Part shown: one piece after another, positions 10,581-57,233 of the stretch
Layout of the letters: each line of letters opens with the position of its first letter
How positions within the stretch are numbered: position 1 is the stretch's first letter
DNA from: Eledone cirrhosa
Taxonomy: Eukaryota
Direction: 5' to 3'
Length of the DNA stretch: 64,000 bases
Assembly (NCBI GenBank): GCA_964016885.1
Contig: OZ024741.1
Location: 181,164,001-181,228,000 of the forward strand
Position numbers and translations under genes: made by a program
Notes under the pieces: generated by a model
Databases searched by the model: none
What the model was told of the DNA's origin: nothing
The model's input: only the letters and a program-made list of their open reading frames with translations

Positions 10581-10649
<69 letters not shown>

Positions 10650-10975
10650 GGAAAAAAAGAAATGAAATTTCATTTCCCACTCTTAGTACGGCTGTTACTT
10701 AAATATAAGTATGTACACGTACATACATATATGTATACAGACGTACAGTAGTATGTATATATATATACACACATGCACACATATATATATGTACGTATGG
10801 ATTCACCATGGATTCAACATTTATTATAATGCTCGGTGTGTTTGTAAACAAACATCCCGTATTAAGCCGTAGTGTCTAGCAACCATCGTTGCTCGTTTGT
10901 TCAACACAGACAAAAGAACGCTGTACTAGTTTCAAGCTTATTAGCTATCGTCAGCAACGTATACCTTCCTGCCAG
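10650..10975 (+). repeat. Dispersed repeat family, second copy at 55860-56102 with inverted piece 56108-56243
   Basis: Long high-identity match, e.g. TACAGACGTACAGTAGTATG and TACTAGTTTCAAGCTTATTAGCTATCGTCAGC. Confidence 0.8.
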
Positions 10976-11182
10976 ATTGTTGAACGTATATACTTACCTT
11001 ATGCATATTAACGGCTGAGTAGCCCAATTTGCATATCGAGTGGGTTAATCGGCCTTCAACCTCAGCCGGTGGCCCTCGAGGGCCACCGGCTGAGGTTGAA
11101 GGAGCAGAATAGCGGTCGCCCTCGGGTCCTCGATTTTCAGCCCCATGGATTTTATCTATTACATTCACGTATTATATTTCGA

Positions 11183-13234: not shown

Positions 13235-16200
13235 ATACCTCGACGAGGAAGAAAGAACACATCTGGTTGGTCTATCGATAGTGGAAAGAAATAACGGCTA
13301 AGGAGAGCCGAAGAAGGTGAACAAGATAGTGGTCAACGCCAACAAGATCGGGACAAGCATGCGCATAGAAGGATCGATAAGACTGATAAAGCAAGGGCTG
13401 CGCGTCTGGCGGAACAGAGGGAAAGAGACAGAAACAGGAGAGATCATGAATCGGGTGGTCGGAGAGCTGAGCGTCTGGCGGAACAGAGGGAAAGAGACAG
13501 AAGCAGGGGAGATCATGAATCGGATGGTCGGAGAGCTGAGCGTCTGGCGGAACAGAGGGAAAGAGACAGAAGCAGGAGAGATCATTAATCGGATGATCGG
13601 AGAGCTGAGCGTCAGGCGGAACAGAGGGAAAGAGACAGAAACAGGAGAGATCATGAATCGGATGGTCGGAGAGCTGAGCGTCAGGCGGAACAGAGGGAAA
13701 GAGACAGAAACAGGAGAGATCATGAATCGGATGGTCGGAGAGCTGAGCGTCAGGCGGAACAGAGGGAAAGAGACAGAAGAAGGAGATATGACGAATCGGA
13801 CGCTCCGAGAACTGAACATCTTTGCCAACAAACCATTAGAGATAGAGCAAGGACAGTTCAACGATGTGACCTCTCTGCTGATGTTGGACAGATGAATAAG
13901 ATCTGTGTCTGTTGTCATGCAATGCTTTTTCATGGTGAAACTGCTAACTTTTGCTGTATGAATGGAAAAGTCAGGTTGGGGAATCTGCAGCCTTTACCAC
14001 AGGACCTTCACAGTTTATTTAGTACCGATCAACCTAGGGCAAACGAGTTCAGGAAGAACCTCAGACAATACAACTGCCTGTTCCAAATGACATCTTTTGG
14101 GGCCGAAGAAGTTCGTTCCTCAAGGAGTGGATGGAATCCTTCTATCGTTATTCATGGTCAAATTCATCATTACATCGGTTCCTTAACCCTAATCCCAATG
14201 AACAACCCCAATTTCTTCAAATTTACTTCTTGGATCCTCAGGATAGTGTTGATTTGAGGATCAGGATACTCCATAACGATGGCATTCAGCGCGACATAGT
14301 TGAATTATTGGAAATAATACTCAGTCAATATAACCCTTACGTTGCTTCATTTCGAATGGCAAAAGAACAAATTAAAAATATTCCCGAAGCTTCGATTATT
14401 ATTGATCCCGATAGGAGACCAGCAATGGAACATGAGAGAAAATTCAATGCACAAACTGCAAAAGAAGTTGCCGTTATTATACAAAACAGCACCGAAGTTC
14501 AAGCAAAAGCACGGCACATTGTGTTGAAAGAAAAAAGCGGACAATTGCAAATAATCTCAGAGTCCCATCGGTCCTATGACAGTTTGCAGTATGTCCTATT
14601 TTTTCCTTTTGGCGATGACGGATGGCATCATGAGCTGTTAATGAGCAACAACAAGAAGTTGATGCCAATGCGCTACAATGCCTATCGAATAATGAACCAT
14701 GAGAATGAATTCAACCAACTTCTCAGAGGCGGTCGTTTATTTCAGCAATATTTAGTTGACATGGCTGCGAAGATTGAAGGAGATAGACTGCAATACACCC
14801 GAATGAATCAAACATCATAGTGATCTACAACATACAAGGGCCTTACTGACGCATTGAATGATGATGACGATTTTCGCAATATTGGCAGGCGAATCATACT
14901 ATCTTCCACATTTGTCGGTGGACCGAGATATATGATGGAGAGATGCCAGGATGCCATGATGTACATACGGAAGTACGGCAATCCATCACAATCGTTCTTC
15001 ATCACAATGACATGCAATCTAAACTGGCCTGAAATCCGGCAAAACCTATTCCTGAATCAGAAGCCACATGACAGGCCAGATTTAATTGCCAGAGTATTTG
15101 ACCTGAAGCGGAAACTGTTAAGAAAGTATCTTACTGGAGTAGATGGCCTATTTGGCAAGTGCATTGCTAAGTGCTGAATATCAAAAGCGAGGTCTTCCTC
15201 ATGTGCACTGTTTGCTATGGCTCAATGAAGCCTCCAAGCCCAGACCGCAGGAATATGATAAATTTGTTCAAGCCGAAATACCAGATCCAAACAAAGATCC
15301 AGAGGGTCATGAATTGGTGCTGAAGCACACGATCCACGGTCCGAATTGCTCTAACAATTCGCCATGTTGGAAAGATGGAATGTGCAGTAAGCGGTACCCT
15401 AAGCCTTTCAATGAATATACATTGTGTGGAGAGGACTCTTATCCTGTGTACAGAAGACGGTTTCCAGGAATGGGAGGATTTGAGGGGCACCAAGAAGGAA
15501 GAGAAGCCGAAATATAACTTCGGAATGGGTGGTTCTCTACAATATGAAACTATTAAAATTGTTCAACTGCCAGCTAAACGTAGAGATGTGCTCTTCCGTG
15601 AAATCGATCAAATACGTTATCAAATATACCATGAAGGGAAGTGATCAGGCAATGTTTGGAGTGAACAGGGAAGATGAGATAATATAGTATTTAACAGTAA
15701 GATATATCGGTCCTTCAGAAGCTGTTGCCTTGGTACTTGGATTTCCAATTCATGAGAGAGAACCGGCCGTAGTTCGCCTTCAATTTCATCTACCTGAGGA
15801 AAATCAAATCTTTCGGGTCAATGCTGCTGTTAAAGTAAACAATAACATGGCTAAGACGACTCTGACTGAGTTCATGGATCTTTGCGATCGTGATCCGTTT
15901 GCAAAAACATTGTATTATGCCGATGTGCCAAAGTTTTACACTTGGAGTAATAAGAGATGGGAAAGGAGAAAGGTGGGGAAAACAGTTGAGCAGTATCCAG
16001 GGATTTTTGAGGCGAACGTTGTGGGACGAGTATACACTGTTTCTCCACGAAGTGGTGACCTGTATTATTTAAGACTCCTTCTGCATCACGTCAAAGGGCC
16101 AGTATCCTTCAACTCTTTCAAAATGTGTGATGGAGAACTCCTGCCATTATTCAAAGACGTCTGCAGAGAGAAAGGTTTGCTTCAATCGGATGATCATTGG

Positions 16201-17912
16201 CAGCAGACTCTGGAAGATGCTGAGCGAACAAGGCTTCCCAAAGCCATGAGAGATCTATTCATCGGGCTCCTCACAAATACGGAAATTGACAATTCCAGTG
16301 CTTTATGGGTTCTATTTAAGCATTCGCTGTCTGAGGATTACCTTCAAATAGAAAAAAGGGCTACCAGAAACTCCAACCTTTTGATTAGCGAGAGACATTA
16401 TGATCAATGTCTTCTGTATTTTGAAGACAAACTTAACGACCTGGGCAAAGGTCTTAGTGACTTTAACTTACCAAGGCCAAATAATATTGTTGCTAATCAG
16501 GATATTGGCACTTTGGAGTTATTGCATGAATTACAATACAGCAGAGAAGAGCAGCGTCGATTTGTAGAAGAGACGGAGCCTCTATTGAATAGTGAACAAA
16601 AACACGTGTACGACTTCGTTTGTAACAGTTTAGAGACGAACACATCTGCATTGATTTTCATTGACGCTCCAGGTGGAACAGGAAAGACATTTCTAATTAA
16701 CTTAATTCTTTCAAAAGTGAGGGGAAACGGTGACGTGGCTATTTCTGTTGCGTCATCTGGCATTGCCGCAACACTGATGCCTGGTGGAAGAACAGCGCAT
16801 TCTAGGTTCAAAATACCGATAGTAGTGAAATAAAATGGTCTGTGCAACATTGATAAAAACTGAAAGACGGCAAATCTCTTCCATCATACAAAGCTGATTG
16901 TTTGGGATGAGTGTCTCATGATTCGGAGGGAAAGCTTCGAAGCTGTTGACCTCACTCTTTGTGACATATGCGACAACAATGAGGCATTCGGTGGAATTTT
17001 GACAATTTGCTGTAGCGATTTCCGCCAGCTTCTTCCGGTAGTGAAAAAGGGAAATGAAGCGGACGTGGAAAACGCTTGCATCCTACTTATGGCGAAGCTT
17101 CAAAAGATTTCAGTTGAAGACAAACATGCGATTGGGTGGGGGAGCAGGAGACTATTCACAGTTCCTATTGGATATTGGAGAAGATAAGATAAAAAAAACT
17201 GAAAATGAGGAAATTATTTTGCCAAAAGAAATGGTTCTCCAAGCAACAACTATGGAAGAATGTATTGATTTCATCTACCCATCATTCGACAATCCAGCTG
17301 AAGTGTTTTCGAACAATTGCATCTTAGTACCTCTCAATGAAATGATGAGAAGCATCAATTCCACCTGGAACCATAAAAGAGTACTGGTCCTATAATTCTG
17401 TGAGTGATGGTGCCAATGCCACTCATTTCCCGACTGAATTCTTTGATTCGGTTGAACTATCAGGACTGCCACCACAAAACCTGGAATTGAAAAAAGGATC
17501 GCCAATAATTCTTATGAGAAACTTGAATCCTCCACGGCTTTGTAATGGAACGCGCATGATCGTGGAAGAACTGCACGACAATCTCATAGTAGCAAGAATC
17601 AACACTGCTGCTTTCAGAAATGAGATCGTTATGATACCTAGAATAAGAATTAATCTATCCGAAGGTGAGGATATCCCTTTGCAGCGAAGCCAATTCCCAG
17701 TTCAATCGTGCTTCGCTATGACTATTCATAAAGCACAAGGACAAACTATGGAAAACCTCTTGGTTTATCTGGAACGACCTGTATTCCAACACGGTCAACT
17801 GTATGTAGCCCTTAGCCGCGGAAAACGAAAAGAAAATGTCAGAGTGTTTCTGAAAGATACCCAGTCAACTAAGAATGTTGTCATCAAAAGTATTCCTTTG
17901 AACAAACTGTAA
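13235..17912 (+). pseudogene. Helitron Rep/Helicase (RepHel) pseudogene
   Basis: Zn finger CVCCHA..FCCMNGKV; Rep motifs FFITMTCN, EYQKRGLPHVH, KYVIKY; Pif1 helicase [43 protein letters not shown]; multiple stops and frameshifts. Confidence 0.95.
13402..13800 (+). repeat. 69-bp tandem repeat (about 6 copies) in Helitron ORF N-terminus
   Basis: GCGGAACAGAGGGAAAGAGACAGA recurs at 13409, 13478, 13547, 13616, 13685, 13754. Confidence 0.95.
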
Positions 17913-19869: not shown

Positions 19870-21260
19870 GTATATATATACATACATACATATATACACA
19901 TACATACACACACACATACATATGTTTGTCTCTGTGAATAAATATTTTTCCTGCTACTATGTTTTAATGACAACAATAATGTTATAACTAATAAATCCCT
20001 TGAGGTCAACTCTACCTTTCATCTTTCGAGGGTCGATAAAATAAAGTACTAGTTAAGTATTGAGCTTCAACATAATCGACTTTCCTCTTTACCCTAAATT
20101 GCTCGCCAATATTAGAAAGAATATTTTCTCTGAATAATGTGCAAACACATACACATTTTTTTTACTAAGAAAAGAAAACTATACATCTTGGAACATAGTG
20201 ATAGACCACGTCCTTCAATTCATTTATACACTTCCATCATACGTCTTATATCACCGTAGACGATTCCTGCCCATAAGCCAACTAAAAAAGACTAGACGAA
20301 TTTTACATGATAGTTTATTGAACAAGGGACATAATTCCTTCTTTATTATTTAAAATTATGTCCCTTGCTTTATATAACATACTATTTAGTGGTTTGTCTA
20401 TAATCATATTTTGGACTATTACAAATTCAAAATGAACGCGTACAACCCCACACGCTTATTTAGTAGCTGCATGGACACAGTATGGTCAAATGGTTACTAA
20501 TAACGGAAGAATAAATCCCAAGGAGGGGCATCTTGGGAAAATATCATTTAACATAGCCACGAAACAACCGAAGTCTCATGAATGAGATTGAGTAGAGGGA
20601 AACTGTTTGGAAGTCTGTTGGATGGAGTGCAAGTGTAATTCAAAGGGCCAGCCTTGCCACACACTGGGTACACATGTCCAGGGACTGGTCAACAAATTAT
20701 ACCTTAATTTCATGAACAGGGTTCTCCGTTGATCAAACAACCGAAACAATCATCTACGAAACCGACAGAGGTCGCTTCATTCCACTAGTAGCTCATACAC
20801 ATACTTCAATTTTCCAGAACTTTGGGGATACTGAACCGCAGACAGTGTGGAGTTTGTCATTATTGTCAGTTCGAATAACTGAAGTATTGGTTGATGCTCG
20901 CAGGCGTGCTTGGTTATTCCGGCGTCTTAGTCCCGCAATCACCTACATCAACTCTTGCAATGGGACTGAATCAATTAACATGTGATGGTTACTAAATGAG
21001 TTTCTTAACTTTATAGCCATGTATATCTACGTAACAATTAAGTCAAAGATGTACATCCATATATGTATACTGAAATACTAGTATGTATATGAATACACAC
21101 ACGTATACATATGTAGATGTACCAAGTTTTTTTTTCACTGATCACTTTACTGTGAGTGGCCAGCTATTCTGTATGTAAACACACAGACAAACCGGTTTTT
21201 AGAGTCATACTGGTTTTTGAGGAAACACCTTTCCTCTATTCTCCAGAAAGCCAGACAAGG

Positions 21261-21305
21261 AATATTGAACTAGTTTCGTTGTTGTTACAACTCATCAGCA
21301 ATATT
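21261..21305 (-). ncRNA. Hammerhead motif of array unit (minus-strand copies also at 21731-21775 and 22201-22245)
   Basis: Reverse complement of AATATTG-CTGATGA-GTTGT-AACA-ACAAC-GAAA-CTAG-TT-CAATATT. Confidence 0.8.
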
Positions 21306-22973
21306 TACCTATCTTCCGGCCTCTCTAGAGAATCGTAAAAGCACATATCGCTATATGCTTTTTCTATGAAAATTAGTAGTGGGCAGACCAACTTGCATAG
21401 AGTGTGAGTAAGTACCGGTTCAACGGAGACGATAAAAACAAATAACGAAACGAAATTAAATTTCGTTTCGTTTATAACTCACTTTTGTATGACTGACGCT
21501 CAAACAATTAAGTCAAAGATGTACATCCATATATGTATACTGAAATACTAGTATGTATATGAATACACACACGTATACATATGTAGATGTACCAAGTTTT
21601 TTTTTCACTGATCACTTTACTGTGAGTGGCCAGCTATTCTGTATGTAAACACACAGACAAACCGGTTTTTAGAGTCATACTGGTTTTTGAGGAAACACCT
21701 TTCCTCTATTCTCCAGAAAGCCAGACAAGGAATATTGAACTAGTTTCGTTGTTGTTACAACTCATCAGCAATATTTACCTATCTTCCGGCCTCTCTAGAG
21801 AATCGTAAAAGCACATATCGCTATATGCTTTTTCTATGAAAATTAGTAGTGGGCAGACCAACTTGCATAGAGTGTGAGTAAGTACCGGTTCAACGGAGAC
21901 GATAAAAACAAATAACGAAACGAAATTAAATTTCGTTTCGTTTATAACTCACTTTTGTATGACTGACGCTCAAACAATTAAGTCAAAGATGTACATCCAT
22001 ATATGTATACTGAAATACTAGTATGTATATGAATACACACACGTATACATATGTAGATGTACCAAGTTTTTTTTTCACTGATCACTTTACTGTGAGTGGC
22101 CAGCTATTCTGTATGTAAACACACAGACAAACCGGTTTTTAGAGTCATACTGGTTTTTGAGGAAACACCTTTCCTCTATTCTCCAGAAAGCCAGACAAGG
22201 AATATTGAACTAGTTTCGTTGTTGTTACAACTCATCAGCAATATTTACCTATCTTCCGGCCTCTCTAGAGAATCGTAAAAGCACATATCGCTATATGCTT
22301 TTTCTATGAAAATTAGTAGTGGGCAGACCAACTTGCATAGAGTGTGAGTAAGTACCGGTTCAACGGAGACGATAAAAACAAATAACGAAACGAAATTAAA
22401 TTTCGTTTCGTTTATAACTCACTTTTGTATGACTGACGCTCAAACAATTAAGTCAAAGATGTACATCCATATATGTATACTGAAATACTAGCAATATTTA
22501 CCTATCTTCCGGCCTCTCTAGAGAATCGTAAAAGCAGTATACATATATGGATGTATACATATATGGAGAATAGAGGAAAGGTGTTTCCTCAAAAACCAGT
22601 ATGACTCTAAAAACCGGTTTGTCTGTGTGTTTACATACAGAATAGCTGGCCACTCACAGTAAAGTGATCAGTGAAAAAAAAACTTGGTACATCTACATAT
22701 GTATACGTGTGTGTATTCATATACATACTAGTATTTCAGTATACATATATGGATGTACATCTTTGACTTAATTGTTTGAGCGTCAGTCATACAAAAGTGA
22801 GTTATAAACGAAACGAAATTTAATTTCGTTTCGTTATTTGTTTTTATCGTCTCCGTTGAACCGGTACTTACTCACACTCTATGCAAGTTGGTCTGCCCAC
22901 TACTAATTTTCATAGAAAAAGCATATAGCGATATGTGCTTTTACGATTCTCTAGAGAGGCCGGAAGATAGGTA

Positions 22974-23018
22974 AATATTGCTGATGAGTTGTAACAACAA
23001 CGAAACTAGTTCAATATT
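22974..23018 (+). ncRNA. Hammerhead motif of array unit (further plus-strand copies start at 23444, 23913, 24385, 24855, 25325)
   Basis: 7-bp stem I AATATTG/CAATATT, CUGAUGA, 5-bp stem II, GAAA, palindromic ACTAGT stem III, GUU triplet. Confidence 0.8.
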
Positions 23019-26000
23019 CCTTGTCTGGCTTTCTGGAGAATAGAGGAAAGGTGTTTCCTCAAAAACCAGTATGACTCTAAAAACCGGTTTGTCTGTGTGT
23101 TTACATACAGAATAGCTGGCCACTCACAGTAAAGTGATCAGTGAAAAAAAAACTTGGTACATCTACATATGTATACGTGTGTGTATTCATATACATACTA
23201 GTATTTCAGTATACATATATGGATGTACATCTTTGACTTAATTGTTTGAGCGTCAGTCATACAAAAGTGAGTTATAAACGAAACGAAATTTAATTTCGTT
23301 TCGTTATTTGTTTTTATCGTCTCCGTTGAACCGGTACTTACTCACACTCTATGCAAGTTGGTCTGCCCACTATTAATTTTCATAGAAAAAGCATATAGCG
23401 ATATGTGCTTTTACGATTCTCTAGAGAGGCCGGAAGATAGGTAAATATTGCTGATGAGTTGTAACAACAACGAAACTAGTTCAATATTCCTTGTCTGGCT
23501 TTCTGGAGAATAGAGGAAAGGTGTTTCCTCAAAAACCAGTATGGCTCTAAAAACCGGTTTGTCTGTGTGTTTACATACAGAATAGCTGGCCACTCACAGT
23601 AAAGTGATCAGTGAAAAAAAACTTGGTACATCTACATATGTATACGTGTGTGTATTCATATACATACTAGTATTTCAGTATACATATATGGATGTACATC
23701 TTTGACTTAATTGTTTGAGCGTCAGTCATACAAAAGTGAGTTATAAACGAAACGAAATTTAATTTCGTTTCGTTATTTGTTTTTATCGTCTCCGTTGAAC
23801 CGGTACTTACTCACACTCTATGCAAGTTGGTCTGCCCACTACTAATTTTCATAGAAAAAGCATATAGCGATATGTGCTTTTACGATTCTCTAGAGAGGCC
23901 GGAAGATAGGTAAATATTGCTGATGAGTTGTAACAACAACGAAACTAGTTCAATATTCCTTGTCTGGCTTTCTGGAGAATAGAGGAAAGGTGTTTCCTCA
24001 AAAACCAGTATGACTCTAAAAACCGGTTTGTCTGTGTGTTTACATACAGAATAGCTGGCCACTCACAGTAAAGTGATCAGTGAAAAAAAAAAACTTGGTA
24101 CATCTACATATGTATACGTGTGTGTATTCATATACATACTAGTATTTCAGTATACATATATGGATGTACATCTTTGACTTAATTGTTTGAGCGTCAGTCA
24201 TACAAAAGTGAGTTATAAACGAAACGAAATTTAATTTCGTTTCGTTATTTGTTTTTATCGTCTCCGTTGAACCGGTACTTACTCACACTCTATGCAAGTT
24301 GGTCTGCCCACTACTAATTTTCATAGAAAAAGCATATAGCGATATGTGCTTTTACGATTCTCTAGAGAGGCCGGAAGATAGGTAAATATTGCTGATGAGT
24401 TGTAACAACAACGAAACTAGTTCAATATTCCTTGTCTGGCTTTCTGGAGAATAGAGGAAAGGTGTTTCCTCAAAAACCAGTATGACTCTAAAAACCGGTT
24501 TGTCTGTGTGTTTACATACAGAATAGCTGGCCACTCACAGTAAAGTGATCAGTGAAAAAAAAACTTGGTACATCTACATATGTATACGTGTGTGTATTCA
24601 TATACATACTAGTATTTCAGTATACATATATGGATGTACATCTTTGACTTAATTGTTTGAGCGTCAGTCATACAAAAGTGAGTTATAAACGAAACGAAAT
24701 TTAATTTCGTTTCGTTATTTGTTTTTATCGTCTCCGTTGAACCGGTACTTACTCACACTCTATGCAAGTTGGTCTGCCCACTACTAATTTTCATAGAAAA
24801 AGCATATAGCGATATGTGCTTTTACGATTCTCTAGAGAGGCCGGAAGATAGGTAAATATTGCTGATGAGTTGTAACAACAACGAAACTAGTTCAATATTC
24901 CTTGTCTGGCTTTCTGGAGAATAGAGGAAAGGTGTTTCCTCAAAAACCAGTATGACTCTAAAAACCGGTTTGTCTGTGTGTTTACATACAGAATAGCTGG
25001 CCACTCACAGTAAAGTGATCAGTGAAAAAAAAACTTGGTACATCTACATATGTATACGTGTGTGTATTCATATACATACTAGTATTTCAGTATACATATA
25101 TGGATGTACATCTTTGACTTAATTGTTTGAGCGTCAGTCATACAAAAGTGAGTTATAAACGAAACGAAATTTAATTTCGTTTCGTTATTTGTTTTTATCG
25201 TCTCCGTTGAACCGGTACTTACTCACACTCTATGCAAGTTGGTCTGCCCACTACTAATTTTCATAGAAAAAGCATATAGCGATATGTGCTTTTACGATTC
25301 TCTAGAGAGGCCGGAAGATAGGTAAATATTGCTGATGAGTTGTAACAACAACGAAACTAGTTCAATATTCCTTGTCTGGCTTTCTGGAGAATAGAGGAAA
25401 GGTGTTTCCTCAAAAACCAGTATGACTCTAAAAACCGGTTTGTCTGTGTGTTTACATACAGAATAGCTGGCCACTCACAGTAAAGTGATCAGTGAAAAAA
25501 AAACTTGGTACATCTACATATGTATACGTGTGTGTATTCATATACATACTAGTATTTCAGTATACATATATGGATGTACATCTTTGACTTAATTGTTTGA
25601 GCGTCAGTCATACAAAAGTGAGTTATAAACGAAACGAAATTTAATTTCGTTTCGTTATTTGTTTTTATATCTACGTACTTACCTAAATATGTTTTGTATA
25701 AACATAAAGATTTATATTATTTTCAACAATTGAAAAAATTATCACCATTTTGAGGTGCAAGACTCTAGTAAAATCTATGAACAGTTACCTCCCCTAGCCT
25801 TGTCTGTTAAAACAGCGAAACATAATTCCTCTATGTCGTTGTGGTTTTTCAAAAAGCTAGAAATCGCAGCCAATATGTCCATTAATCATAAAATATTGTA
25901 CAGAAAAATGAAAGAAGTACACAATAGATAATGTGGTTCTTCATATATTATGTCAGAATAAAACATGGGAAGATTATAGCTGGAAAATCTTTGATCATTG

Positions 26001-30313: not shown

Positions 30314-30385
30314 TACGTTATTCCGGGTTGAATCGGAGGTAACCACAGTAAGTAAGGTACTCAATACATTGCAGAGTATAACAGT

Positions 30386-30502
30386 TTTAATATAGATGAG
30401 ATTCTACAGGACTAGAACTGTTTCATTCTTTAGAAATCATCAGGAATCCTGATGATTTCTAAAGAATGAAACAGTTCTAGTCCTGTAGAATCTCATCTAT
30501 AT

Positions 30503-30506
<4 letters not shown>
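30386..30506. repeat. Perfect 60-bp-arm palindrome containing a hammerhead core
   Basis: Arms exactly complementary around A30446; CTGATGA-TTTCTAAAGAAT-GAAAC..GTC present on both strands; related unfolded copy at 49468-49582. Confidence 0.9.
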
Positions 30507-30543
<37 letters not shown>

Positions 30544-49591: not shown

Positions 49592-51470
<1,879 letters not shown>

Positions 51471-51521
51471 TATATATATATATATTCACACACATACACA
51501 CACACACATATATATATGTGC

Positions 51522-51552
<31 letters not shown>

Positions 51553-52505
51553 CATAAATATGTCATACCGCACATCTATTCTGCACGAATTTCTTGAACA
51601 ACAATTAAGGAATATTGCCTTCTCAGCCATTGTGGTCCCAAATCTTCTACTCTAGGAAATAATTATTACATTAATTATCTAACTGATAATCATTAGTCAG
51701 CAGCTCAAATTAGATTTCTTCTTTAAATGGTTTCCTAGAAATACGCAATAATTCATAAATTGGAATAAAATTTCTTATTATCTTTCATATTATTCAGAAA
51801 TAAATTTTTTATGAATATTATATAAGGTAAAAATAATTATCATCTATTAAATTATTTTTTCTTGCTGGAATTATGTTTTAGATAATATTTTACAAGCATA
51901 AAATATTACAAGCATAAAAATTATCAGATTTACTCTGATTTTTAATTTACAAGAGAAATATATTAGGCACATACGTTTTACTTTCGAAAACGAAAGTAAA
52001 ATTTAATTTAGACATTATCTTTGTTTTATATTGGTGTTGTTACTATTGCTACTGTGGTTGTTGTTATTGTAGTCGTTGTTCTTGCTCTTGTTGCCGCGAT
52101 ATACAAATATTCGATATACAAACTTTACATACATGCATGTATACAGCTATGCTGGAGTGAACATCTTAATTCTATTTCTTGTTCAGGCCGAGCCAACATA
52201 AAGCTCGATATATGCAAATGAGGCTAATCAGCCCATATACAAAAGCGTTAAAACTATATGTTTGTGGCTTATTTGAGTCCCAATATGAGGCGAGGAAGAG
52301 ATGCATAACCTTGACAACGACTAAACACCCAGAAACAACTATCGGTTGCTTCCCCCACGCTTCAGCTGGAATGGGGTAGATGGCGCCAGCCATCACCTTT
52401 AACATTCATAACTAAAGGCTTTCAAATGTTTAATCGTAAACATATCGTATATTCGCTATACAAACTTTACATATAAATATACATATATGAATATATATAT
52501 ATATG

Positions 52506-53231
52506 GGGGGAACTAAAAGGACGAAAAAACGGGTCAGTACTATACGAACATGCAAGACAACAACATGACGGTAACATAGACAACATAGAAATTAGAATAA
52601 TATCTAAACATAGAAATGACCCAGCAGATAGGCAAATCAGAGAGGCCAGTGAAATAGAAATTAGAAGACCAAGGCTAAACAGAAAGAATGAATGGAATAA
52701 CAACAACACCCAAATAAACAACACTGACCTAAGAGAAGTATAAATAAGTAAATAAAATAAAATAAATAAATAAATAAATACATACACAAGCACAATAACA
52801 ACAAGCACATAAACACACACTAGTCACCCATCACACAGCAAACAAAACACTATACACACAACCAAACGCATGCGCAAAGAAGACAAAATAAAATAAACAA
52901 ACAAGCAAATAAATAAATAAATATATAGACAGACTGAATAAAAATGGCGTAGACATACAATACAACAGGAGGAAAATATAACACCACTGACGATGTTGCA
53001 GATGTGCAACGAAAGATTTATGATAAACTATATATATGTGTTTGTGTCTATATTGTATCTGTATTATTTTTGAGCGTCGGTCAGTCAATGGCAACATTGA
53101 GGACCGAGTAAGTTAGATTACCGATATAAAAGACACAGAAGCTAGAAGCGAAAACCAACCAAACAGTGAGTGTGTTCTGTTATTAATTCTGGCAATATTA
53201 CACAAATATGACCCTCCCCAAGTATAACAAT
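52506..53231 (+). mobile_element. Second copy of the PLE 3' end, inverted relative to 49698-50447
   Basis: High-identity reverse complement; contains CTGACGA-TGTTGCA..TGCAAC-GAAA hammerhead-like core at 52987-53022. Confidence 0.88.
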
Positions 53232-53539
53232 ATATATATATATACGTATCAATGTAGCAATTATTTAAACATTTAAAGAAATTACCTGAAACGTTCAGTT
53301 GATTAACTATAAACATAATTGCAATGCCTGTGTAAACTCATCTTTAATATATTTAATAAATGTTTATGAGGAGAAATCTCAATTAATTTTTGAAAATCCA
53401 ATATTTTAATGAGATTTTATTACATACGGTATTTTATTTTTGTCTGATAAGCGAGCAATTTGGTTTGTTCACTCAAGAAGAAATATTACAGAAATACATA
53501 AATAAATAATATATAAACGGTGTTATTAGTGAGTGTCTG

Positions 53540-55788: not shown

Positions 55789-55863
<75 letters not shown>

Positions 55864-56240
55864 TATGTATATGTACATACATATATGTATACAGACGTAC
55901 AGTAGTATGTATATATATACATACATGCACACATATATATATGTACGTATGGATTTACCGAGCATTTATTATAATGCTCGGTTTGTTTGTAAACAAACAT
56001 CCCGAATTAAGCCGTACAGTGTTTAGCAACCATCGTTGCCCTTTTGTTCAACACTGACAAAGGAACGATGTACTAGTTTCAAGCTTATTAGCTATCGTCA
56101 GCTATCAATGCTCGGTAAATCCATACGTACATATATATATGTGTGCATACTACTGTACGTCTGTATACATATATGTATGTACGTATACATACTTATATTT
56201 AAGTAACAGCCGTATTAAGAGTGAGAAATGAAATTTCGTT

Positions 56241-57233
<993 letters not shown>

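What the first reader, a model, noticed from the sequence alone, without database searches (positions are those of the whole stretch)
21022..25677. Whole inverted array is bounded by a 12-bp target-site duplication: single twin-primed insertion of a multimer
Seen: TATATCTACGTA lies immediately left (21022-21033) and right (25666-25677) of the array and is not part of the unit. It overlaps the array ends by 1 nt and 3 nt (TAT). Relative to ribozyme sense, the left arm is inverted and the right arm is sense, the geometry known from twin-primed L1 insertions and from inverted 5' repeats of Penelope. Inference: 4.6 kb of repeat was written in one event by reverse transcription of a multimeric or circular RNA (rolling-circle RT), rather than grown by unequal crossover. 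This would be a direct route from a ribozyme RNA to satellite DNA.
Basis: partly seen in the sequence, partly recalled or inferred. Interest (0 to 1): 0.85.

Follow-up and report, generated by a model that had tools for sequence, protein, structure and literature searches.

The report
Ribozyme repeat inserted from both ends
A 4.6-kb head-to-head array of a 470-base ribozyme-like repeat sits between duplicated target bases, and hundreds of related insertions share its two fixed ends, so it was likely written in one event by a Penelope-type reverse transcriptase copying one, probably circular, RNA from both cut DNA ends.

Summary
Observation confirmed. TATATCTACGTA flanks the array (21022-33, 25666-77); 8 of its 12 bases lie wholly outside the unit. 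The array is one insertion of a non-coding 470-bp hammerhead repeat (non-LTR retrozyme type) with at least 2,269 termini in this 3.0-Gb genome. Insertions target (TA)n, are head-to-head, carry 11-14-nt duplications (13 of 59 versus 46 of 3,422 mismatched pairs), and end at two fixed unit positions about 71 nt apart (283 and 208-213). Inner breakpoints are random. This is the Penelope 'tail' signature (two internal RT start sites, both strands primed), not L1 twin priming. All 10 copies here, on both arms, carry one base change absent from 644 other young copies. Another array has 18 of 18 copies with a change otherwise seen only twice singly and twice on an unplaced contig. That points to one monomer re-read many times, as rolling-circle RT of a retrozyme circle predicts; the papers read propose this but show no insertion-level evidence. 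No empty allele, RNA or partner element was found. A linear multimer template remains possible, and some old long arrays also grew by DNA-level duplication.

The parts
21022..21033 (+). left copy of target-site duplication (last base shared with the element)
21033..22491 (-). inverted arm, 3.1 copies of the 470-bp unit; outer end at unit position 212 (fixed end B), inner end at 164
22490..22536 (-). 47-bp templated patch (unit 418-372) at the central junction, 2-nt overlaps with its neighbours
22535..22567 (+). two short templated patches (unit 173-193 and 175-189) at the central junction
22564..25668 (+). sense arm, 6.6 copies; outer end at unit position 283 (fixed end A)
24844..24915 (+). 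one of 9 type I hammerhead motifs in the array (6 plus, 3 minus): 7-bp stem I, 5-bp stem II, 2-bp palindromic stem III; predicted cleavage after 24892 (GUU; an older subfamily has GUC)
25598..25668 (+). 71-nt 'tail' between ends B and A, present at the sense end only; holds a long predicted hairpin (about 25627-25657)
25626..25626 (+). unit position 241 T: variant carried by all 10 covering copies of this array on both arms (terminal copy shown)
25666..25677 (+). right copy of target-site duplication (first 3 bases shared with the element)

Best explanation
This is a single, recent insertion of a non-coding hammerhead-bearing repeat (non-LTR retrozyme type), likely written by a Penelope-like RT-endonuclease that would cut TA-rich DNA with an 8-12-nt stagger, prime from both 3' ends at two fixed RNA sites about 71 nt apart, and likely run several times round one circular monomer from each end. 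Shown: duplicated target bases, head-to-head arms, two fixed outer ends, random inner ends, (TA)n targets, variants shared by all copies of both arms, and unscarred read-through of the predicted cleavage site. Inferred: the enzyme is a Penelope-like element acting in trans (partner not identified). The top-strand end primes at site B (unit 208-213) and makes the inverted arm; the bottom-strand end primes at site A (283, with 3 nt of TAT pairing) and makes the sense arm. The two cDNA ends are then joined by microhomology with templated patches. The template is predicted to be a circle made by dimeric hammerhead cleavage and ligation; no RNA was observed. Odds by step: one insertion event about 0.9; Penelope-type two-site priming about 0.85; circular (or re-read) monomer template about 0.7.
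For: Family: 307 matches at 24 scored loci of 368 candidates, 2,269 A-end termini, 8,908 hammerhead motifs. Of the 24 loci picked by unit similarity alone, 23 have end A, 20 have end B and 19 have both. Of 79 complete A-ended insertions (50 stretches were picked by their A end), 61 have a B motif at the other end, 0 a second A end and 18 no recognisable end. TSD of 11-14 nt containing non-(TA)n bases: 13 of 59 true flank pairs versus 46 of 3,422 mismatched pairs, p=1e-12, mode 12. The same short-end/long-end pairing appears in 5 of 5 two-ended insertions of an intact 784-aa Penelope-like family among 8 loci examined. Frangieh 2024 (PMC11167929) show in vitro that a PLE cuts and extends both strands and starts RT at two internal sites that bound the tail. 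Monomer bottleneck: 11 of 26 young loci have a substitution in every covering copy, on both arms in 9. 241T is in 10 of 10 copies here versus 644 young copies with 241C; the other 10 genome hits are single copies in elements mostly 89-97% identical. 393T: 18 of 22 genome hits are all copies of one array, 2 lie on an unplaced contig and 2 are single copies elsewhere. In 54 two-arm loci, 0 sites are fixed differently between arms and 16 sample-private sites are fixed on both. Inner ends are not enriched at the cleavage site (6 of 142, p=0.41). The monomer folds as a circle at z=-9.5 against 40 shuffles.
Against: No empty allele seen, no circular RNA shown, and no autonomous element sharing sequence with the unit found. 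Frangieh 2024 found hammerhead cleavage dispensable, unprocessed RNA the main substrate, and no strand difference in start site. Variants in some but not all copies occur in 5 of 26 young loci (C9, C4a, C1a, C1b; C17b's 11 of 12 looks like an alignment slip). L127 shares two variants between only the outermost copies of both arms, which fits a multimeric template. Some 'fixed' variants are sub-lineage markers, not private: 380G occurs at 9 places, 322G at 3 loci. 241C>T and 2G>A recur in older copies, so they are mutable sites. Only 3 variants were checked genome-wide. One B/B insertion exists (L188). A single assembly may lack a homogeneous donor array. The young subfamily has GUU, a weaker cleavage triplet than GUC (recalled).
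Confidence: 0.62

Rival explanations
1. Same Penelope-type priming from both ends in one event, but the template is a long uncleaved linear multimer transcribed from an already homogeneous donor array (or a di-/trimeric circle), not a monomer circle.
For: Frangieh 2024: unprocessed RNA is the main substrate and hammerhead cleavage is dispensable. L127 outermost copies share two variants; C4a has one variant on both arms in scattered copies. About half of the young loci carry no fixed difference and are uninformative.
Against: No multi-copy donor for 241T in the assembly, and none for 393T apart from 2 copies on an unplaced contig. A new mutation in a linear multimer marks one copy only, so all-copy variants need a monomer bottleneck at some step. 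No ordered variant series is shared between any two of 26 young loci.
Confidence: 0.22
2. A short head-to-head insertion was made by RT, and the arms then grew by unequal crossover or slippage, with gene conversion between arms.
For: L096 and L137 show repeated blocks of variants; C9 shows an A,B,A,B pattern; C1a and C1b show paired variants. The 2026 preprint favours local amplification by unequal crossover.
Against: This locus has only two singleton substitutions and no duplicated variant. No site is fixed differently between arms in 54 loci. Young arrays reach 19 copies with 0.00% within- and between-arm divergence. A short seed carrying the variant on both arms would also give shared variants, so this rests on the lack of duplicated singletons and on the youth of the arrays.
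Confidence: 0.09
3. The inversion arises by fold-back or self-priming of one cDNA (hairpin at a palindrome, possibly on an antisense template, as proposed for rotifer Penelope elements), with only one target end priming.
For: Arkhipova 2013 (PMC3846280) proposed self-priming from palindromes at inverted junctions. 4 of 69 junctions here are near-perfect fold-backs (inner ends within 5 nt), 3 of them at the unit's own hairpin.
Against: 65 of 69 junctions have unrelated inner ends (within 30 nt in 10 of 69, p=0.41). The inverted arm's outer end is fixed even when that arm is only 7-21 bp long, which one-ended fold-back does not explain.
Confidence: 0.04
4. Classical L1-type twin priming on one linear RNA, or an assembly fold-back artefact.
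For: Overall geometry (inverted left arm, sense right arm, TSD) resembles twin-primed L1 copies (recalled). Only the left junction was checked with reads.
Against: No poly(A) end; both outer ends fixed; sense inner end near site B in 5 of 69. An artefact would mirror the same flank and the same end, but the flanks differ, the left flank is single-copy, the ends differ by 71 nt, the pattern recurs at dozens of loci, and a short-read contig crosses the left junction.
Confidence: 0.03

Closest known systems
Metazoan non-LTR retrozymes (Cervera and de la Pena 2020, PMC7229834; review PMC7761336; preprint 10.64898/2026.07.22.740005)
   Same: Non-coding, low-GC tandem unit of a few hundred bp with one type I hammerhead per unit and a weak palindromic helix III; highly self-paired predicted circle; TSD longer than 4 bp; coexists with Penelope-like elements.
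   Different: In the passages read, mobilisation by PLEs and circle-templated multimeric cDNA are proposed, not shown from insertion structure; head-to-head arms, fixed priming sites and (TA)n targeting are not described. The 470-bp unit is slightly above the 150-450 bp range quoted. Circular RNA was shown for those species, not here.
Endonuclease-bearing Penelope-like elements (Penelope/Poseidon, Neptune, Naiad; Craig 2021 PMC8557442; Arkhipova 2013 PMC3846280; Frangieh 2024 PMC11167929)
   Same: Inverted 5'-truncated copy head-to-head with the sense copy, a tail at one end only, 8-10-bp TSDs, AT-rich or (TA)n targets, hammerhead in the terminal repeat, two internal RT start sites.
   Different: No ORF; both arms are long multimers of one unit; tail about 71 nt rather than 30-40; the two start sites are almost always used one per end, whereas the in vitro work saw no strand difference.
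Non-autonomous Chlamys elements such as MRC1 (Craig 2021)
   Same: Non-autonomous PLE-type elements with multicopy head-to-tail insertions.
   Different: Those share 3' sequence with their autonomous partners; none was found here. Canonical hammerheads are reported absent from that clade.
L1 twin priming (recalled, Ostertag and Kazazian 2001; not read)
   Same: Both target ends prime; inverted left arm, sense right arm, TSD, microhomology at the join.
   Different: L1 primes at poly(A) plus a variable internal site next to the sense arm's inner end; here both sites are fixed and the inner ends are independent.

Membership tests
non-LTR retrozyme | tandem non-coding unit of a few hundred bp, GC below 50%, no LTR/PBS/PPT | tested here: met
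   470-bp unit, no ORF of 150 aa or more over the array; low GC seen directly; PBS/PPT were not searched separately
non-LTR retrozyme | type I hammerhead in each unit with short palindromic helix III | tested here: met
   9 motifs in the array; Rfam HH9 E=9.6e-8, below gathering; 14 of 14 pairs kept in 5 distinct sequences with one compensatory pair, not significant against shuffles (53 of 500)
non-LTR retrozyme | TSD longer than 4 bp and dispersed insertions | tested here: met
non-LTR retrozyme | self-cleavage and accumulation as circular RNA | not testable with these tools
   no RNA run listed; only predicted folding
Penelope-like element insertion (non-autonomous) | head-to-head inverted copy with a tail at one end only | tested here: met
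   61 of 79 A/B, 0 A/A, 18 without a recognisable left end; one B/B found separately
Penelope-like element insertion (non-autonomous) | AT-rich / (TA)n target and short TSD | tested here: met
Penelope-like element insertion (non-autonomous) | terminal sequence shared with an autonomous PLE | tested here: inconclusive
   no similarity to the ends of the PLE families at hand; the genome's PLEs were only partly sampled (10,357 candidates, 124 scored)
autonomous Penelope-like element | RT plus GIY-YIG ORF | tested here: not met
   no ORF in the array
L1-type twin-primed insertion | inverted arm's outer end variable and adjacent on the template to the sense arm's inner end | tested here: not met
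   outer end fixed at 208-213 in 59 of 79; sense inner end in 200-225 in 5 of 69, p=0.33
L1-type twin-primed insertion | 3' poly(A) and T-tract target | tested here: not met
   sense arm ends in GTTTTTAT followed by the TSD; targets are (TA)n

The most novel reading that the evidence does not exclude
These arrays are the direct genomic footprint of rolling-circle reverse transcription in an animal germ line: a Penelope-type enzyme (predicted elsewhere to be a dimer) grips a hairpin on one ribozyme-made RNA circle, starts at a different site on each side of the hairpin from each cut DNA end, and writes up to about 16 copies per arm in one step. That gives evidence from insertions themselves that retrozyme circles are the transposition template, an asymmetric two-primer rule for Penelope transposition in general, and a one-step origin of tandem repeat seeds.
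Probability: 0.5. Interest if true: 0.8.

Novelty: new member of a known kind. Interest (0 to 1): 0.63.

Why it matters
Two open points meet here. How animal retrozymes are mobilised is still a hypothesis (PLE enzyme, circular template), and how PLEs form their inverted-plus-tail structures is called undefined by Craig 2021. This very young, high-copy family gives both a readable record: PLE-type ends on a retrozyme, one start site per target end, and whole arrays descended from one monomer. It supplies defined substrates (a 470-nt RNA, two start sites, a TA-rich target) and intact candidate enzymes in the same genome for an in vitro test, and bears on RT systems that write long tandem DNA from RNA circles. 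The element class and the inverted architecture are each already known, which limits the surprise.

Tried and rejected
Empty allele: the left flank is single-copy in the assembly, with no haplotig or paralogue. One read-laying on 20300-21130 used 4 of 23 listed runs, all contigs. The X1 contig stops exactly at 21033, which a heterozygous empty allele would cause, but no loose end into the right flank was shown, X2 (same sample) runs on into the element, and 219 loose ends and 1,504 pieces were not displayed, so this is inconclusive. X15 and X4 did not cover the flank at the junction. No RNA holder was listed. Autonomous partner: 9 PLE 3' regions aligned to the hammerhead and tail gave scores within shuffle range; the 784-aa family and the L083 family showed no useful similarity; a hairpin pattern search listed only near-copies of the unit's hairpin, and its loci were not read further. 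The 66% match beside a PLE in L187 proved to be a sister retrozyme family, not a PLE end. Pfam found nothing significant in the three PLE ORFs scanned; their assignment rests on recalled RT and GIY-YIG motifs. Rfam at gathering threshold: 0 hits in the window. The idea that cDNAs end at the hammerhead cut was rejected (6 of 142), as was correlation of the two inner ends. The likeness of the TSD to unit 124-135 (2 mismatches) was not seen as a rule at other loci and is treated as TA-rich chance. C11 as donor of both 393T and 2A: 2G>A recurs in old copies, so only 393T is informative. The first structure count used a mis-registered structure and was redone; mis-aligned arm ends and was superseded. 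Three look-ups of earlier scan findings returned nothing.
Full report
OBSERVATION. The 12-mer TATATCTACGTA occurs exactly at 21022-21033 and 25666-25677 and nowhere else in the window without mismatch. Between them lie 3.1 copies of a 470-bp unit on the minus strand (21033-22491), a 72-bp centre made of three short templated pieces, and 6.6 copies on the plus strand (22564-25668). One base on the left and three on the right are shared with the element, so the duplication is 8-12 nt; the 8-nt core alone has a chance of about 4e-4. Each unit holds a type I hammerhead motif with a 2-bp palindromic stem III (Rfam HH9 E=9.6e-8, under the gathering score; none at gathering). One stem II pair changes on both sides in an older subfamily, which is not significant in 5 sequences. 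A short-read contig crosses the left junction by 29 bases without differences.

THE FAMILY. The window lies in a 3.0-Gb genome rich in microsatellites. The unit matched 307 times at 24 scored loci of 368 candidates. Exact patterns gave 2,269 sense-arm termini, 524 termini of one B-end variant and 8,908 hammerhead motifs. I examined the 24 top-identity loci, 10 loci picked by the 241T variant and 50 stretches taken nearly consecutively down the list. Three clusters were dropped before counting (C13 and an L085 fragment lack an A end; L121 duplicates L120), leaving 84 A-ended clusters, 79 of them complete. The sense arm ends at unit 283 in 75 of 79; this is partly by construction, but 23 of the 24 loci chosen without regard to ends also have end A, and 19 have both ends. 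The inverted arm starts at 208-213 in 59 of 79 by alignment or 61 of 79 by motif; 0 have two A ends and 18 have no recognisable left end. Among the first 100 B ends listed, two close pairs were fetched; one proved a B/B insertion and the other two separate elements. Almost all flanks are (TA)n. Where flanks carry other bases, an 11-14-nt duplication is found in 13 of 59 insertions against 46 of 3,422 mismatched flank pairs (p=1e-12), 8 of them 12 nt. Six others gave 17-32-nt matches within near-microsatellite, and three informative flanks gave none. This locus is unusual only in that its target is an imperfect TA run, which makes the duplication visible.

PRIMING GEOMETRY. The two inner ends are independent: within 30 nt of each other in 10 of 69 (p=0.41). 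The sense inner end lies near site B in 5 of 69 (p=0.33), and inner ends lie within 8 nt of the predicted cleavage site in 6 of 142 (p=0.41). Junctions overlap in 35 of 69, are blunt in 8, and carry 1-6 extra bases in 17 and more in 9 (no chance control was run). L1 twin priming (recalled) predicts a variable second site next to the sense inner end, so it is rejected. Penelope-like elements fit. Craig 2021 describe an inverted truncated copy, a 30-40-bp tail often at one end only, and (TA)n targets (abstract and passages). Arkhipova 2013 describe 8-10-bp TSDs around such structures and propose self-priming (passages). Frangieh 2024 show a PLE protein cutting and extending both strands from two internal RNA sites that bound the tail (parts 1-2 of 4). 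Intact PLE families in this genome show the same layout: in 8 loci of a 784-aa family, the 5 insertions with two outer ends each pair one short and one tailed end, in (TA)n. None shares sequence with the unit, so the partner is unknown.

TEMPLATE. If each array were re-read from one monomer, a mutation in that monomer would mark every copy on both arms. Among 26 young loci (261 copies), 11 carry such an all-copy substitution, on both arms in 9; there are 34 singleton substitutions and 6 partly shared ones. At this locus 241T is in 10 of 10 copies, while 644 young copies elsewhere have C and the 10 other T hits are single copies in more diverged elements. For 393T, 18 of 22 genome hits are all the copies of one array, 2 lie on an unplaced contig and 2 are single copies in other arrays. 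Across 54 two-arm loci no site is fixed differently between arms, and 16 sample-private sites are fixed on both. The arms here read through 9 predicted cleavage sites without scars, and the monomer folds as a circle far better than shuffles (z=-9.5). Against: 380G marks 9 places and 322G three loci, so not all fixed variants are private; only three variants were checked genome-wide; 241 and 2 are recurrent sites; C9, C4a, C1a, C1b and L127 have partly shared variants; L096 and L137 show repeated variant blocks that indicate later DNA-level duplication; and the donor could be absent from this assembly. Re-reading of one linear monomer by template jumps would look like a circle, but such jumps might be expected to leave scars at the cleavage site.

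MECHANISM. Likely order: an array is transcribed; dimeric hammerheads release monomers that are ligated to circles (known for other retrozymes, inferred here); a PLE protein makes an 8-12-nt staggered cut with 3' overhangs in TA-rich DNA; one end primes at A and the other at B, on either side of a hairpin; each runs round the template and stops at random; the two cDNA ends are joined by microhomology with templated patches (resembling polymerase theta joining, recalled). The duplication, ends, targets and shared variants are shown; the enzyme, the circle and the joining route are inferred.

COMPARISON AND NOVELTY. It works like a Penelope insertion and meets the sequence-level criteria of a non-LTR retrozyme. 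Cervera and de la Pena 2020 (passages and Discussion) and their review (passages) propose circle-templated tandem cDNA and name PLEs as candidates; Cervera 2014 describe the dimeric hammerheads (passages). The 2026 preprint (parts 1-3 of 5, the main text; supplements not seen) argues from co-occurrence and pLTR similarity that retrozymes derive from PLEs, invokes local amplification by unequal crossover, and leaves mobilisation open. Nine searches listed no paper whose title, abstract start or read passages report fixed two-site ends, head-to-head multimer arms or all-copy private variants for retrozymes; most subscription journals are not in the library.

VERDICT. A real feature and a new member of a known kind, with an unusually clear record of a proposed but untested mechanism. 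Interest 0.63.

Noticed in passing
window 10644-11054 and 55792-56241; L163, L187: A sister hammerhead repeat family, about 65% identical to the unit over its length, also in (TA)n; 55792-56241 and L163 are head-to-head.
   Followed up: partly
window 49690-51485 (-) and 52504-53242 (+): Two truncated copies of an autonomous Penelope-like family (RT end plus GIY-YIG by recalled motifs); the 1,130-aa open frame in L099 has an asparagine-rich insert and a minimal hammerhead in its 3' region.
   Followed up: partly
L178-L185 (e.g. G000:C1:62996980): Very young Penelope-like family with dozens of near-identical, often intact 784-aa ORFs, tandem and inverted, with a roughly 40-nt tail at one end; a candidate enzyme for in vitro work.
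   Followed up: partly
L060, L063, L081, L101, L036, L051: Another PLE family with two 3' ends about 60 nt apart and a hammerhead-like motif upstream.
   Followed up: partly
window about 30385-30515: A small near-perfect palindrome made of two head-to-head minimal hammerhead motifs of another family; similar pieces flank L180 and L184.
   Followed up: no
window 35473 and 57929 (+): Two further single hammerhead-like motifs unrelated to the unit.
   Followed up: no
window about 13300-17900 (+): Broken Helitron-like Rep/helicase frames (motifs recalled), with a 69-bp minisatellite at 13397-13815.
   Followed up: no
L188 (G000:C1:141066909-141067657): An insertion with end B on both sides, an exception to the one-site-per-end rule.
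   Followed up: yes
L096 (G000:C1:5738091-5752748) and L137: Long older arrays (about 30 and at least 14 copies) with repeated blocks of variants, i.e. higher-order repeats forming.
   Followed up: partly
L133: Sense-only insertion flanked by a 56-bp direct repeat with non-microsatellite sequence.
   Followed up: no
L120 and L121: The same insertion appears twice 17.7 kb apart, a local duplication or assembly repeat.
   Followed up: no
run X4 (organism B), window 21033-21130: A contig from another organism matches 98 bases of the unit without differences and continues into unit sequence, so the family may be shared with a related species.
   Followed up: no
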